Below are positions 60,990 through 64,000 of a stretch of 64,000 bases of DNA, piece after piece. Under the pieces are notes generated by a model. That model had not been told where the DNA came from, made no database searches, and was given only the letters and a program-made list of their open reading frames with translations. The first letter of the stretch is position 1. Every line of letters begins with the position of its first letter. This DNA comes from Deltaproteobacteria bacterium (GTDB lineage Bacteria > Desulfobacterota > Syntrophia > Syntrophales > JAFGHS01), in NCBI GenBank assembly GCA_016928025.1, contig JAFGLN010000063.1, positions 716 through 64,715 of the forward strand, read 5' to 3'. A program made the translations under genes and the position numbers.

Positions 60990-61748
60990 ATGTATATCGA
61001 TCAGGATCTTTGTGAAAGGTGTATGGATTGCATTCCCGTGTGCCCGGTTGGCGCCATCGGAATAGAGGAGACCAAATGCGCCCGCCACTTCTCATTCCGG
61101 GTGGTCATCGACTATGAAACATGCGTCGAATGCGGTGTATGCCGGCGGCTGAAGAAATGCCCGCAAAAGGCGATAAAGCAGGTGGAGGATATACCGTATC
61201 CGCGTATTCTCCGGGCGGCCTTCTCCGATCCCACGTTCCGGCATGCCAGTACGGCCGTGTTGGGCCGGGGAACGGAAGAAATGAAAACCAATGATGTGAA
61301 AAACGAGTTTACCCGGGATAATGTCGGCTTCTCCGTTGAGGTCGGGCGGCCCGGCGTCGGCGCCTATTTTCGCGACCTTCAAAAAGTGACGATGAAAGTC
61401 GTTGCCCTCGGCGGCGATTTCGCCTCTTACAATCCCGTTGTGGCTCTTATGGACAAGAGCACCGGCGCACTGCAAGAGGAGGTGCTTGATGAAAAGGTGC
61501 TCTCCGCCATTGCCGAATTCGTCGTGCCCAGGGACAAGGCCCTGAAGGTTCTTGCGGATCTCGTTGCCTTTATAAACGCGGAGCTCGAATCCGTGGCCAC
61601 CATCAGTGTCATAGCGAGAAACGAGGTTGACGGCGGTCATGCATTCCTGCGCAAGCTGAAGGTGCACGGAAAAGTCCATGGCTACGTTCCATACCCCAAC
61701 GGAAAAGTCAATCTCGGCATCGCCGCGCTCAAAGGAGGTAAACCATGA
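60990..61748 (+). CDS. 4Fe-4S dicluster-domain protein with ~180-aa uncharacterised C-terminal domain
   Basis: 252 aa. Cluster motifs CERCMDCIPVCP and CVECGVCRRLKKCP. RBS gaggagg. Confidence 0.75.
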   Translation: MYIDQDLCERCMDCIPVCPVGAIGIEETKCARHFSFRVVIDYETCVECGVCRRLKKCPQKAIKQVEDIPYPRILRAAFSDPTFRHASTAVLGRGTEEMKTNDVKNEFTRDNVGFSVEVGRPGVGAYFRDLQKVTMKVVALGGDFASYNPVVALMDKSTGALQEEVLDEKVLSAIAEFVVPRDKALKVLADLVAFINAELESVATISVIARNEVDGGHAFLRKLKVHGKVHGYVPYPNGKVNLGIAALKGGKP

Positions 61749-62419
61749 CGCATACGCTCAATAGAAGAGGGCTGGACAATGGCAGGCCGGGCGAAGAGAT
61801 CTGCGTCCTGTCCATGATCCATTATCAGGATCGGAATGAGGAAACCGCCGAGGCGATGAGGGAACTCGCCAGGACCATTATTGCCTACGGGCCCAACAAC
61901 ATCATGGGATCTTCCGTCGGGGCCACGCCCGAGCAAATCATTGAATCAGCGGCGGCGTCCGGCGTCATTACCGCCGTCTTTACCGATAAAGATACCGTCG
62001 GCAGGCTCGTGCGGGAGATTAAAACAAAAGATCCCGGCATATCGGTTGTCCTGTCCGGCCTCTTTTCGGATATTCACGACATCTGCGAATATGCGGGCCT
62101 GACGGAGCATACGAGCAACTACGCCGTCGGCATATCCGGCAACGCAGCTCTTCTGCCGGACCATATCACCCTCGAAATAGCCACGCAATGCGGCCATGGC
62201 CTGGTTTCCCGCCACTACATCCAACACGTGGCCTGCCGGATCGCGGAAGGTAAAATGACGGCGCGGGAAGGTGCCGAACTGCTATCCAAACCCTGTGTCT
62301 GCGGCATTGTTAATAAAAAGCGAACGGAAGAAATATTGCTGAAAATGGCCGAACTGACTTCCTTTACGGAAGGGCATGAAATCAATTACGCTGTGCGGCA
62401 AAAACGGAAATTTTCCTGA
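61745..62419 (+). CDS. conserved-looking hypothetical protein
   Basis: 224 aa. ATGA overlap with the ferredoxin-like gene. No motif recognised. Confidence 0.6.
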   Translation: MTHTLNRRGLDNGRPGEEICVLSMIHYQDRNEETAEAMRELARTIIAYGPNNIMGSSVGATPEQIIESAAASGVITAVFTDKDTVGRLVREIKTKDPGISVVLSGLFSDIHDICEYAGLTEHTSNYAVGISGNAALLPDHITLEIATQCGHGLVSRHYIQHVACRIAEGKMTAREGAELLSKPCVCGIVNKKRTEEILLKMAELTSFTEGHEINYAVRQKRKFS

Positions 62420-62465
62420 GGAAATAGGGTCTTTTATATACCCCCGTGCGCTGGTGTGAGAGGTG

Positions 62466-62495
62466 CCTTGAACCTTGCACCTTGATCCTTGAACC
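62466..62495. repeat. heptamer-like repeat CCTTGAA/CCTTGCA/CCTTGAT/CCTTGAA
   Basis: The reverse complement reads ggttcaagg-atcaagg-tgcaagg-ttcaagg. It belongs to the same GGTTCAAGG family as 10578, 27128 and 27613. Confidence 0.5.
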
Positions 62496-62499
62496 TATA

Positions 62500-62537
62500 T
62501 CACCCCGCCCTTGATGGGAGTGGCCGGGGGAGGGTGA
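62500..62537. repeat. TCACCC...GGGTGA palindromic (REP-like) element, copy 2
   Basis: tcaccccgcccttgatgggagtggccgggggagggtga. Confidence 0.5.
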
Positions 62538-62584
62538 TTCCCATGGTACACCGGCAAACATTTCAATTGTAGGGGAGCGTCGGA

Positions 62585-64000
62585 ATGGAAAGGATAATGA
62601 AGGGGCAACGCGCACTTCTCGAAGAAGTGGGACAATCCCCGTTCTGCACGGGGTGCGGCGCCTGTGTCAATCTGTGCGCCTATCATGCCGTTCATGAGGA
62701 CCATGTCATAACGCTTCATGAATGCGATATCGAACAAGGGCGGTGTTATGCCTACTGCCCGCGGACCCCGACGGACAGGGACGCGCTGCGGAAGCTGCTG
62801 TTTGCCGCGGAGGATATCACGCCGGAACTGGGCGCCGTCAGGGGCTATTATATCGCACGGGCCGCCGACGAAGCAAAAAGAGCCGGAGCGCAGCATGGCG
62901 GGACGGTAACCGCCCTCATGACCCTGGCCATGAAGGAAGGCATCATCGAGTCGGCGATTGTCGCCGATGACGGCCCCGATCTGCTGCCGAGAGGGGTCAC
63001 GATTAATTTTCCCGAGGAGATCGCGAGGCAGGGGAAAAGCCGATTCGTCGTTTCCCCCAACGTGGCCGAGTTTAACGCCCTCGCCTGGGCGGGAGGCAGG
63101 AAGATCGGAATCGTCGCCACACCCTGTCAGACTTTGGCCCTGGCCAAGATGCGCGCCAGGCCGGTTGCCGCCCATGCGGCACGAATCGACCAGCTAAAGC
63201 TCGTTGTCGGCCTGTTTTGCGGCTGGGCCCTCTCGTGGGAGAAGCTCCGCACCCTGGTTCTCGGCAAAGGCATCGACCCGAAACATATCGAAGGCATGGA
63301 CATTCTCCCCAGCCAATATCAGATGCTGCAGGTCTATACGAAGCAGGGGACCGTCGATATTCCTCTGGACGAGGTCGATCCCGCTTGTGTTCGCGAAGCC
63401 TGTCATTACTGCCCGGACATGACCGCGGAGTTTGCCGACATTTCCGTAGGTTCCACCAGATTGCCGGAAGGGTGGGATGTGGCCAGGGGATGGAACCAGG
63501 TGATCGTCCGGACCCCTCTGGGAGAGGAACTGTTGGCGCTGGCCCGCACAAAGGGAATTCTTGAATTCCGCGGTGTGCCGGAGGGCAACCTGGATCGTCT
63601 GAAGAAGGCCTCCCTGAGCAAACGGAAGACGGCATCGGAGAACCTGGCCGTCCTGGCTGAAAAGGGCGCGGCCGGTCTTTTCGGAAAGCCGGACAGCCCG
63701 GGTCAGCCCGTTGTTTCCGTGTATGGAGGCGAGGCGTTCTTTCAGGAGGTTTTGCCGTCATTGGCCAACGCCGTGCGCGACCGGGCCAATATGACCGTGG
63801 TCGTCTCCAATGCCGGCGGCCGAAATATGATGGGATTCACGCCCAATCCGGCTTCAGGCGTCAATGCCGTGGATGACCGGGATCCCCATGCGGATATGAC
63901 CGCGCGGTGCGAGGCCGTCGGTGCAAAGGTGCGGATCCGGGACCCCTTTGATCTTGAAGAAACCCGCGCTGCCCTCAGTCGCATGATGAAGGAAGACGGT
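62585..64000 (+). CDS. FrhB-family (coenzyme F420 hydrogenase/dehydrogenase beta-like) FeS flavoprotein fused to an IorA-like TPP-domain segment; 3'-partial
   Basis: This ORF is not in the supplied track because it runs off the window. I translated it by hand and found no stop from 62585 to 64000 (472 codons). RBS aggggag; in-frame stop upstream at 62570. Motifs: CTGCGACVNLC...CYAYCP, GGTVTALMTLAMKEG, VATPCQ, CHYCPDMTAEFADISVG, then GGEAFFQEVLPSLANAVRDRANMTVVVSNAGG. Confidence 0.8.
   Translation, partial: MERIMKGQRALLEEVGQSPFCTGCGACVNLCAYHAVHEDHVITLHECDIEQGRCYAYCPRTPTDRDALRKLLFAAEDITPELGAVRGYYIARAADEAKRAGAQHGGTVTALMTLAMKEGIIESAIVADDGPDLLPRGVTINFPEEIARQGKSRFVVSPNVAEFNALAWAGGRKIGIVATPCQTLALAKMRARPVAAHAARIDQLKLVVGLFCGWALSWEKLRTLVLGKGIDPKHIEGMDILPSQYQMLQVYTKQGTVDIPLDEVDPACVREACHYCPDMTAEFADISVGSTRLPEGWDVARGWNQVIVRTPLGEELLALARTKGILEFRGVPEGNLDRLKKASLSKRKTASENLAVLAEKGAAGLFGKPDSPGQPVVSVYGGEAFFQEVLPSLANAVRDRANMTVVVSNAGGRNMMGFTPNPASGVNAVDDRDPHADMTARCEAVGAKVRIRDPFDLEETRAALSRMMKEDG

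What the first reader, a model, noticed from the sequence alone, without database searches (positions are those of the whole stretch)
60990..64000. Unlisted 3'-open ORF: FrhB-like FeS-flavoprotein fused to a degenerate IorA-like TPP segment, in an operon with a ferredoxin-like protein and an unknown protein
**What the sequence shows.** The ORF track offers only GC-shadow ORFs on the minus strand for 62.5-63.8 kb. Hand translation of the + frame from the ATG at 62585 (RBS aggggag; in-frame stop at 62570) gives an uninterrupted 472-codon reading frame to the window edge.

The first ~350 aa carry FrhB-family hallmarks:
- an N-terminal 4Fe-4S motif, CTGCGACVNLC...CYAYCP;
- GGTVTALMTLAMKEGIIESAIV;
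- IGIVATPCQ;
- CHYCPDMTAEFADISVG.

From about aa 380 the sequence VSVYGGEAFFQEVLPSLANAVRDRANMTVVVSNAGGRNMMGFTPNP follows.

**Alignment from memory, not a computed result.** That later segment aligns with the TPP/Mg-binding stretch of indolepyruvate:ferredoxin oxidoreductase alpha subunits (approximately [40 protein letters not shown]). Here the GD(S) and DN metal/TPP-binding positions read GG(E) and SN.

**Inference.** The TPP site is probably inactive and the segment has been recruited as a structural or partner-binding module. The two upstream genes, a 2x[4Fe-4S] protein with an unknown 180-aa domain and a 224-aa unknown, are ATGA-coupled to each other and lie 165 nt upstream of this ORF. 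This suggests an uncharacterised oxidoreductase complex.
Basis: partly seen in the sequence, partly recalled or inferred. Interest (0 to 1): 0.62.

Follow-up and report, generated by a model that had tools for sequence, protein, structure and literature searches.

The report
FrhB-like flavoprotein fused to IorA remnant
A rare gene made when a deletion welded an FrhB-type iron-sulfur flavoprotein to the last third of its neighbouring 2-oxoacid oxidoreductase gene; the thiamine site was lost, the ferredoxin domain was kept, and the gene sits in an operon with a widespread, uncharacterised pair of iron-sulfur proteins.

Summary
The ORF is real. The contig runs past the window, so the ORF completes at 562 aa, with its stop at window-equivalent 64273.

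**Domain order**
- N-terminal ferredoxin-like Cys motif
- FrhB_FdhB_N and FrhB_FdhB_C
- the last two thirds of a TPP_enzyme_C domain

**Origin of the tail.** The tail is colinear with the last ~200 residues of IorA-like proteins. In unfused relatives, frhB-like, iorA and iorB are adjacent genes; this holds in 32 of 60 relatives in the order and on another contig of this genome. Against the nearest unfused locus, about 1.43 kb is replaced by five codons, and iorB is gone.

**State of the tail**
- No fused protein keeps the Gly-Asp of the IorA G-D-S motif, and five of seven lack the next loop.
- The ferredoxin domain is as constrained as the FrhB head (dN/dS 0.08-0.12).
- The TPP remnant is relaxed (0.18-0.51).

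**Other results**
- No F420 ligase gene was found in any of the 61 genomes searched.
- The two upstream genes form an obligate pair in about 80 genomes of many phyla. The pair has no Pfam family and no PDB fold match.

**Reading.** The fused protein is an orphaned electron-transfer module that now serves that pair. This is a new variant of a known kind, of moderate interest.

The parts
60990..61748 (+). Fer252: a 252-aa protein with an N-terminal 2x[4Fe-4S] ferredoxin domain (8 invariant Cys) and a ~180-aa alpha/beta domain. Invariant residues in that domain are G92-R93-G94-T95, K99, G119-R120-P121, E176 and K239.
   Evidence: ORF. Fer4 families. AF2 pLDDT 90.5. No PDB fold hit below E 1e-3 beyond generic ferredoxin and PII-like folds. 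The gene is always directly upstream of the Hyp224 gene.
61745..62419 (+). Hyp224: a 224-aa protein of an unnamed family, ATGA-coupled to Fer252. The N-terminus MTHTLNRxGL is conserved. C149-G-H151 and C186 are invariant; C114, H122 and C184 are nearly invariant.
   Evidence: No Pfam or NCBIfam hit. 109 clusters, all named 'hypothetical'. Alignment A1. 633 representative clusters in 1.84 billion proteins. AF2 pLDDT 89.7. No Foldseek PDB hit below E 0.1.
62420..62584 (.). 165-nt spacer enlarged by two dispersed repeats of this genome: a CCTTGAx heptamer run (62466-62496) and a 43-nt palindromic element (62497-62539). The RBS GGGGAG lies at 62572-62577.
   Evidence: blastn-short against the genome. 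High word depth in run X1. The same spacer is 13 nt in L007, 63 nt in L005 and 138 nt in L006.
62585..64000 (+). Fused ORF. 472 of its 562 codons lie in the window; it continues to window-equivalent 64273 on the same contig.
62624..62824 (+). N-terminal ferredoxin-like domain (aa ~14-80). Cys 21, 24, 27, 31, 47, 54 and 58 are conserved in all seven fused proteins.
   Evidence: Aligns with residues 15-83 of PDB 8RIU chain B. That region is a 2x[4Fe-4S] ferredoxin domain according to PMC11493965. Cys positions.
62849..63574 (+). FrhB-type flavin/[4Fe-4S] core (FrhB_FdhB_N aa 89-160, FrhB_FdhB_C aa 172-330), with Cys 181, 212, 273 and 276.
   Evidence: Pfam. PDB 3ZFS chain C, E 1.1e-34, with PCQ, the second Cys and CxxC aligned.
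63653..63667 (+). Fusion junction. Five codons (LAEKG) stand where the nearest unfused locus has 1429 nt: the last ~26 codons of frhB-like, the intergenic gap and iorA codons 1-443.
   Evidence: (L009 coordinates), alignment.
63668..64000 (+). IorA-derived remnant of the TPP (PP) domain (aa 362 to ~480; the window ends at aa 472). The degenerate motif positions are G381-G382-E383 (63725-63733, where IorA has G-D-S) and S408-N409-A410 (63806-63814, where IorA has L-D-N). The 2x[4Fe-4S] domain follows beyond the window at aa ~498-554, with Cys 503, 508, 510, 514, 520, 539, 542, 545 and 549.
   Evidence: Pfam TPP_enzyme_C on profile positions 44-149 of 151. TIGR03336 on model positions 421-595. 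Alignment with five full IorA-like proteins. dN/dS. Cys positions.

Best explanation
**What it is (shown).** The 562-aa protein is a deletion-born fusion. In the ancestral arrangement an frhB-like gene (FAD, [4Fe-4S] and an N-terminal ferredoxin domain) lies directly upstream of iorA and iorB. Those two genes encode an indolepyruvate-type 2-oxoacid:ferredoxin oxidoreductase.

- An in-frame loss of about 1.4 kb removed the FrhB-like C-terminal tail, the intergenic gap and IorA residues 1 to ~443.
- The lost IorA part covers the Pyr domain, the middle domain and the first third of the TPP-binding domain.
- iorB was lost as well.
- What remains of IorA is two thirds of the PP domain, with no conserved Gly-Asp of the G-D-S motif, plus its C-terminal 2x[4Fe-4S] ferredoxin domain.
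- The protein therefore cannot decarboxylate 2-oxoacids.

**How it most likely works (inferred).** It acts as a soluble electron-transfer module. A two-electron carrier that is not F420 (NAD(P)H or an unknown substrate) reacts at the FAD. Single electrons then travel along the FrhB [4Fe-4S] cluster(s) and the inherited ferredoxin domain. In the ancestor that domain was the natural docking partner of the FrhB-like subunit; it is now tethered by the degenerate PP remnant. The electrons pass to or from the 2x[4Fe-4S] domain of Fer252. Fer252 and Hyp224 together form the catalytic unit of an uncharacterised metalloenzyme. That enzyme most likely acts on a carboxylic acid or aldehyde.
For: **Architecture.**

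**Adjacent frhB-like, iorA and iorB in unfused relatives.**
- L010, L008 and L009.
- This genome's own contig C81.
- 32 of 60 relatives in the order have the head and tail matches about 1.4 kb apart on one contig; none of them is fused.

**Colinearity and deletion.**
- The tail is colinear with the IorA C-terminus (phmmer E 1e-60 to 1e-67).
- The deletion is mapped to 1429 nt against 5 codons.
- No iorB lies downstream in any of the four fused loci with context.

**Phylogeny.**
- Six fused proteins form a clade (SH-aLRT 96).
- All seven lie in a 99-supported clade whose other members are the unfused L009 type.
- One change of state is enough to explain the distribution.
- The sister operon is tetR, fer254, hyp227, MFS, frhB-like, iorA, iorB.

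**Selection.**
- FrhB head: dN/dS 0.11-0.15.
- Ferredoxin domain: 0.08-0.12, and all 9 Cys are kept in all seven proteins.
- PP remnant: 0.18-0.51, with a loop deletion in five of seven.

**No F420.** No CofH or CofE in this genome. CofE is absent from 61 of 61 genomes of the order.

**The upstream pair.**
- The Fer252/Hyp224 pair is directly upstream in every fused locus with context.
- It is an obligate pair in about 80 genomes.
- Its neighbours are TctC (10 of 43), EamA (7 of 43), GntR+FCD (9 of 43), aldehyde dehydrogenases, AFOR and 2-hydroxyacid dehydrogenases.

**Precedent.** FrhB-type modules dock on ferredoxin-type enzymes in PDB 8RIU and 8RJA (PMC11493965).
Against: - Contact between the tail ferredoxin domain, the FrhB core and Fer252 is therefore inferred.
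- A PP domain that lacks its first beta-alpha units may not fold as in IorA.
- The substrate of Fer252/Hyp224 and the partner of the FAD site are unknown.
- The pair also occurs without any FrhB-like gene in most genomes, so it does not strictly need this module.
- The genome keeps an intact FrhB-IorA-IorB set on C81, so a role in trans with that enzyme is not excluded.
Confidence: 0.72

Rival explanations
1. The tail is a decaying relic. The deletion was recent and neutral, only the FrhB-like head works, and the IorA-derived part is on its way to loss.
For: The PP remnant is poorly conserved (31-58% identity, dN/dS up to 0.51) and has suffered further deletions. The fused form is rare: 7 clusters against hundreds of unfused ones.
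Against: - The frame is open in seven lineages that have diverged to 58-76% identity.
- dS is saturated in most pairs, yet the ferredoxin domain keeps 62-74% identity, dN/dS 0.08-0.12 and all nine Cys.
- No member has lost the tail.
Confidence: 0.07
2. The fused protein works in trans with the intact IorA/IorB encoded elsewhere in the genome (C81 or C47). It would serve as an alternative or competing electron outlet, with its IorA-like tail mimicking the native docking surface.
For: This genome has a complete frhB-like-iorA-iorB set on C81 and a second iorAB on C47. The tail keeps the fold elements that adjoin the ferredoxin domain in IorA.
Against: - The tail is only 47% identical to the C81 IorA C-terminus.
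- The fused gene is always coupled to the Fer252/Hyp224 pair, not to iorAB.
- The operon looks like an acquired island. Its GC is 0.54-0.60 against 0.497 for the genome, and it is absent from the same-genus genome.
Confidence: 0.12
3. The tail still binds TPP or another diphosphate nucleotide and contributes catalysis or regulation.
For: TPP_enzyme_C scores above Pfam's cut-off (39.4 against 21.9 bits). N409 stands where IorA has the second Mg-ligand Asp, and Asn is the usual residue at that position in other TPP enzymes (established knowledge of the GDG-X(24-27)-NN motif). P0005 and P0007 keep an Asp at the first position.
Against: - No Pyr domain, without which TPP cannot be activated.
- Profile positions 1-43 of the PP domain are missing.
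- No fused protein keeps the G-D dipeptide.
- Five of seven lack the whole L-D-N-S-G-T-A-M-T-G loop.
- No IorB.
Confidence: 0.04
4. Assembly chimera or frameshift artefact that joins two separate genes.
For: The source is a metagenome-assembled genome. The gene lies 1.4 kb from a contig end, beside a region of GC 0.40.
Against: - The same architecture is seen in six other assemblies from ENA, JGI, NCBI and Logan.
- Independent marine-sediment contigs span 63169-63999 with substitutions only.
- The missing 1.4 kb is not a frameshift but an absence.
Confidence: 0.02

Closest known systems
FrhB-like / IorA / IorB three-gene unit of anaerobes. It is unpublished as far as the literature search shows, but earlier notes of this scan record it repeatedly (e1-1212537, e1-3516265).
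   Same: The head is 55-77% identical to the FrhB-like subunits of these units. The tail is 47-54% identical to the C-terminus of their IorA. The nearest sister operon also carries the Fer252/Hyp224 pair.
   Different: IorA residues 1 to ~443 and all of IorB are missing. The two genes are one reading frame. The TPP motif is degenerate. No 2-oxoacid chemistry is possible.
F420-reductase modules that dock on ferredoxin-type enzymes: the zeta subunit of the F420-reducing CO dehydrogenase (PDB 8RIU chain B) and FwdI of formylmethanofuran dehydrogenase (PDB 8RJA chain E), from Lemaire et al. 2024, PMC11493965.
   Same: The same order of an N-terminal ferredoxin domain followed by an FrhB-type FAD/[4Fe-4S] domain. 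phmmer gives E 3.7e-32 over aa 14-357. The logic is also the same: a flavoprotein plugged into an FeS wire.
   Different: Bacterial rather than archaeal. No F420 ligase gene in the genome or its order. An extra C-terminal ferredoxin domain is covalently attached. The partner enzyme is unknown.
FrhB, the beta subunit of F420-reducing [NiFe] hydrogenase (PDB 3ZFS/4OMF; TIGR03289).
   Same: FrhB_FdhB_N and FrhB_FdhB_C domains are present, and the cluster Cys are aligned.
   Different: Scores 142 bits against the equivalog cut-off of 331.5. No FrhA or FrhG genes lie next to it. No F420 biosynthesis genes were found.
IorA, the alpha subunit of indolepyruvate:ferredoxin oxidoreductase (TIGR03336).
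   Same: The last 175 model positions match (E 3.9e-29), including the unusual C-x4-C-x-C-x3-C-x5-CP ... C-x2-C-x2-C-x3-C ferredoxin domain.
   Different: Only 101 of the 651 bits required. The Pyr domain, the middle domain, the first third of the PP domain and the partner IorB are absent.

Membership tests
FrhB (F420-reducing hydrogenase beta subunit, TIGR03289 / NF006807) | FrhB_FdhB_N and FrhB_FdhB_C domains with the [4Fe-4S] Cys ligands | tested here: met
   Pfam E 1.4e-12 and 4e-35. C181 (PCQ), C212 and C273-x2-C276 align with FrhB of PDB 3ZFS.
FrhB (F420-reducing hydrogenase beta subunit, TIGR03289 / NF006807) | Score above the curated family cut-off | tested here: not met
   TIGR03289: 141.7 bits against 331.5. 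NF006807: 161.7 against 269.
FrhB (F420-reducing hydrogenase beta subunit, TIGR03289 / NF006807) | Organism makes coenzyme F420 | tested here: not met
   No CofH (TIGR03551) and no CofE (PF01996) in the genome, which is 89% complete. CofE is absent from all 61 genomes of the order, while controls ring in the methanogens and Haloferax.
FrhB (F420-reducing hydrogenase beta subunit, TIGR03289 / NF006807) | Encoded with hydrogenase subunits FrhA and FrhG | tested here: not met
   The neighbours are Fer252, Hyp224, an RluA-like gene and a beta-lactamase-family gene.
IorA (indolepyruvate:ferredoxin oxidoreductase alpha, TIGR03336) | N-terminal Pyr domain (POR_N) | tested here: not met
   No POR_N hit in P0001. 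It is present in the unfused neighbours.
IorA (indolepyruvate:ferredoxin oxidoreductase alpha, TIGR03336) | Complete PP domain with the G-D-S ... L-D-N Mg/TPP motif | tested here: not met
   Only profile positions 44-149 of 151 are present. The motif reads G-G-E ... S-N-A here and is not conserved in any of the seven fused proteins. All five full IorA-like proteins keep it.
IorA (indolepyruvate:ferredoxin oxidoreductase alpha, TIGR03336) | C-terminal 2x[4Fe-4S] ferredoxin domain | tested here: met
   Nine Cys are colinear with IorA and conserved in all fused proteins. Fer4 hits at aa 531-554.
IorA (indolepyruvate:ferredoxin oxidoreductase alpha, TIGR03336) | Partner IorB (POR domain) encoded downstream | tested here: not met
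   No IorB-like ORF follows the gene in the window's contig or in L005, L006 and L007.
FrhB-type reductase module docked on an FeS enzyme (zeta of ACDS, FwdI; PDB 8RIU, 8RJA) | N-terminal ferredoxin domain plus an FrhB-type FAD/[4Fe-4S] domain in one chain | tested here: met
   aa 14-357 align with 8RIU_B residues 15-349, E 3.7e-32. Domain description from PMC11493965.
FrhB-type reductase module docked on an FeS enzyme (zeta of ACDS, FwdI; PDB 8RIU, 8RJA) | Physical docking onto a partner enzyme's cluster chain | not testable with these tools
   Only gene linkage with Fer252/Hyp224 is available. No complex model was run.
Fer252/Hyp224 pair (unnamed) | Fer4-plus-180-aa gene directly upstream of a ~205-225-aa MTHTL...QCGHG...PCVCG gene | tested here: met
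   True in the window and in almost every one of the 80 genome loci whose contig reaches upstream of the Hyp224 gene. Alignments A1 and A2.

The most novel reading that the evidence does not exclude
Fer252/Hyp224 is the catalytic core of a new, widespread family of iron-sulfur metalloenzymes of anaerobic carboxylate/aldehyde metabolism. It has 633 representative clusters across Thermodesulfobacteriota, Chloroflexota, Bacillota, Bathyarchaeia and other phyla, no Pfam family and no PDB fold match. The fused FrhB-like::delta-IorA protein would be its dedicated, F420-independent reductase. On this reading the natural truncation shows that the FrhB-like subunit of FrhB-IorAB enzymes binds the IorA ferredoxin domain. 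It also shows that this two-part module can be reused apart from TPP chemistry.
Probability: 0.35. Interest if true: 0.7.

Novelty: new variant of a known kind. Interest (0 to 1): 0.45.

Why it matters
**A natural dissection of an unstudied enzyme.** FrhB-like-IorAB enzymes are common in anaerobes but have not been studied biochemically. Here evolution removed all of the TPP machinery and kept the FrhB-like subunit covalently joined to the IorA ferredoxin domain. That marks this domain as the interface and as a portable electron module.

**A warning for annotation.**
- These genes are labelled 'F420 hydrogenase beta', yet no genome of the order carries an F420 ligase gene.
- A TPP_enzyme_C hit above Pfam's threshold here marks a dead, truncated site.

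**A lead to an unknown enzyme.** The operon points to a two-gene iron-sulfur enzyme of unknown function. It is conserved across bacterial and archaeal phyla and has no family name and no structural relative. It is now linked by gene context to carboxylate transporters, GntR/TetR regulators and aldehyde-oxidising enzymes, which makes it testable.

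Tried and rejected
**The two upstream proteins.**
- Pfam, NCBIfam and PDB sequence searches found nothing beyond the ferredoxin domain, both with single sequences and with profiles A1 and A2.
- Foldseek against the PDB with two confident AF2 models gave only generic ferredoxin-like and PII-like matches, none below E 1e-3.
- I looked for Hyp224 fused to informative domains. Only rare C-terminal Fer4 extensions turned up.

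**Literature.** FrhB with indolepyruvate, IorA or Syntrophus gave no paper on the association.

**F420 as the FAD-site partner.** Rejected for lack of CofH and CofE.

**Synteny of beta-lactamase-family genes.** The gene upstream in the window and the one downstream of iorB in the sister operon are only 22% identical, so they are not orthologous.

**Promoter and terminator scan.** Nothing above the shuffled expectation.

**Earlier scan notes.** Nothing was found on the fused form or on the pair.

Full report
**1. Observation.**

The frame from the ATG at 62585 is open to the window edge at 472 codons. An in-frame TAG at 62570 and a GGGGAG box precede it. The window is positions 716-64715 of a 66359-nt contig. 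On that contig the ORF ends after 562 codons, at window-equivalent 64273.

Pfam finds four domains on the full protein:
- FrhB_FdhB_N at aa 89-160
- FrhB_FdhB_C at aa 172-330
- TPP_enzyme_C at aa 371-476, but only profile positions 44-149 of 151
- Fer4 at aa 531-554

NCBIfam places aa 373-554 on the last 175 positions of IOR_alpha TIGR03336, with E 3.9e-29. IorA G-D-S aligns with G381-G382-E383, and IorA L-D-N aligns with S408-N409-A410.

**2. Where the tail comes from.**

A search of 5.8 billion proteins found only six other fused proteins (543-562 aa, 58-76% identical). It found hundreds of unfused FrhB-like proteins of about 379 aa at 57-77% identity.

In unfused loci the next two genes are a full IorA-like gene and an IorB-like gene:
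- The IorA-like gene carries POR_N, TPP_enzyme_C and a ferredoxin domain, about 645 aa. It scores 591 bits on TIGR03336.
- This order is seen in L010, L008 and L009.
- This genome's own contig C81 has the same order.
- In 32 of 60 relatives of the same order, the head and the tail of the query match two places about 1.4 kb apart on one contig. None of these relatives is fused.

The tail of the fused proteins aligns colinearly with the last ~200 residues of five such IorA proteins. Against the closest unfused locus, 1429 nt are replaced by five codons at 63653-63667. Those 1429 nt comprise the last ~26 codons of frhB-like, the intergenic gap and iorA codons 1-443.

No iorB follows the gene in the window's contig or in L005, L006 and L007.

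A tree of the FrhB part gives this picture:
- Six fused proteins form one clade (SH-aLRT 96).
- All seven sit in a 99-supported clade together with the unfused L009 type.
- A single fusion event is sufficient.

The sister operon, seen on 21 contigs, reads tetR, fer254, hyp227, MFS, frhB-like, iorA, iorB.

**3. What is kept and what is lost.**

All full IorA-like proteins keep C-G-D-S ... L-D-N-S-G-T-A-M-T-G. At G-D-S the seven fused proteins read GGE, EGA, AGG, AGG, ADK, AND and EDN. Five of them lack the following loop altogether.

Codon analysis on four fused genes gives:

| Region | dN/dS | Amino-acid identity |
|---|---|---|
| FrhB head | 0.11-0.15 | 63-82% |
| Ferredoxin domain | 0.08-0.12 | 62-74% |
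| PP remnant | 0.18-0.51 | 31-58% |

All nine Cys of the ferredoxin domain, the seven N-terminal Cys and the FrhB core Cys are present in all seven proteins.

So the tail is not a decaying relic. The ferredoxin domain is under selection as strong as that on the head, and the PP remnant behaves like a tolerant linker or scaffold.

**4. Not F420.**

RpoB places the genome among the Syntrophales: 89% to a 'Deltaproteobacteria' MAG, 82% to Smithellaceae, 80-81% to Syntrophaceae/Syntrophales. The genome has no CofH and no CofE. CofE is absent from all 61 genomes of the order searched, although 33 of them carry the FrhB-like gene. The head also scores far below the FrhB and FpoF cut-offs.

The closest solved relatives are FrhB itself (3ZFS) and two FrhB-type reductase modules: the zeta subunit of the F420-reducing CO dehydrogenase (8RIU) and FwdI (8RJA). 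In those modules an N-terminal 2x[4Fe-4S] domain and a FAD/[4Fe-4S] domain plug into the cluster chain of a partner enzyme (PMC11493965). The design is the same here, but the cofactor that reacts at the flavin must be different.

**5. The two upstream genes.**

- **Fer252** has an N-terminal 2x[4Fe-4S] domain and a ~180-aa domain with invariant GRGT..K, GRP, E and K residues.
- **Hyp224** has no Pfam or NCBIfam family and is 'hypothetical' in every source. Its N-terminus MTHTLNRxGL is conserved and C149-G-H151 and C186 are invariant, while C114, H122 and C184 are nearly so. It has 633 representative clusters among 1.84 billion proteins.
- **Linkage.** In 80 genome loci the Fer252-type gene is directly upstream of the Hyp224-type gene in almost every locus whose contig reaches that far upstream. 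The loci span Thermodesulfobacteriota, Chloroflexota, Bacillota, Spirochaetota, Bathyarchaeia, Heimdallarchaeota and others.
- **Fold.** Confident AF2 models (pLDDT 89.7 and 90.5) have no PDB fold match below E 1e-3.
- **Neighbours**: TctC (10 of 43), EamA (7 of 43), GntR+FCD (9 of 43), TRAP DctP, aldehyde dehydrogenases, AFOR and 2-hydroxyacid dehydrogenases. This is a carboxylate/aldehyde context.
- **Link to FrhB-IorAB.** The pair lies next to FrhB-IorAB only in a subset of loci: L009/L105, L017 and L033. It lies directly upstream of the fused gene in every fused locus with context.

**6. Mechanism (inferred).**

The fused protein cannot decarboxylate 2-oxoacids. It keeps every redox centre of the ancestral electron path except TPP:
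- FAD
- the FrhB cluster(s)
- the N-terminal ferredoxin domain
- the IorA ferredoxin domain

I read it as an orphaned electron-transfer module. It would connect an unknown two-electron partner at the FAD with the clusters of Fer252. Fer252/Hyp224 would be the enzyme proper. The fusion implies that in FrhB-IorAB enzymes the FrhB-like subunit sits on the IorA ferredoxin domain.

Confidence by layer:
- High for the origin, the dead TPP site and the conserved ferredoxin domain.
- About even for the partner assignment.
- Low for any substrate.

**7. Context in this genome.**

- The operon has GC 0.54-0.60 against 0.497 for the genome, and is followed by 1.37 kb of GC 0.40 up to the contig end.
- The same-genus genome lacks both the fused gene and the pair. 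Only 5 of 60 relatives have even distant Hyp224 homologs.
- The closest fused homolog sits in a MAG labelled Sedimentisphaerales.
- The operon therefore looks like an accessory, probably transferred, island.

Independent metagenomes (hot spring, marine sediment) hold near-identical pieces, including the junction.

**8. Limits.**

Earlier notes of this scan describe the unfused FrhB-IorAB unit. They reached the same view of it as I did independently, and one of them also doubted F420. None describes the fused form or the pair.

**9. Verdict.**

It is incomplete about origin and about which part is functional. This is a rare new variant of a known kind of module, of moderate interest. Most of its value lies in what it says about FrhB-IorAB enzymes and in pointing to the unnamed Fer252/Hyp224 enzyme family.

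Noticed in passing
window 62466-62539: The spacer before the fused gene holds two dispersed repeats of this genome. One is a CCTTGAx heptamer run with copies on at least eight other contigs. The other is a 43-nt palindromic element with copies on C3, C119 and C32. In the source run this stretch has a word depth of 120-340, against about 10 elsewhere.
   Followed up: partly
window-equivalent 64274-65644 (L003 6990-8360): The 1.37 kb from the end of the fused gene to the contig end has GC 0.40, against 0.497 for the genome. It holds only one 197-aa ORF of unknown kind. Together with the high GC of the operon (0.54-0.60), this suggests a mosaic accessory region.
   Followed up: partly
L004 5475-11066 (genome contig C81): The genome's own unfused frhB-like-iorA-iorB unit is followed by a flavodiiron-type gene (ODP beta-lactamase fold plus Flavodoxin_1).
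   Followed up: no
L007 / L014 (JAFGGE010000244.1): The closest fused operon (76-87% identical proteins) lies on a 10-kb contig of a MAG labelled Sedimentisphaerales (Planctomycetota), next to a 1332-aa TPS/MBG_2 gene. The cause is either horizontal transfer or mis-binning.
   Followed up: no
L043, L044, L068, L088: Two to four copies of the Fer252/Hyp224 pair lie within a few kb of each other in Syntrophaceae, Chloroflexi, Dehalococcoidia and Bathyarchaeia contigs. This suggests paralogous expansion of the unknown enzyme.
   Followed up: no
L011 8098-12297: In one metagenome contig the pair is followed by a 989-aa HdrA-like flavoprotein, a polyferredoxin and a CCG-domain protein. This is a different electron module next to the same pair.
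   Followed up: no
L005 6504-7270; L008 9164-11923: The Fer252 homolog in L005 is split into two ORFs (135 and 120 aa). iorA and iorB in L008 are in pieces. These are probably frameshift errors of those assemblies rather than biology.
   Followed up: no
L005 578-6351: In the 232-kb contig with fused protein P0007, the operon continues a same-strand row of genes: GntR, B12-dependent acyl-CoA mutase, family III CoA-transferase, MmgE/PrpD and enoyl-CoA hydratase. This is a branched or dicarboxylic acid catabolic context.
   Followed up: no
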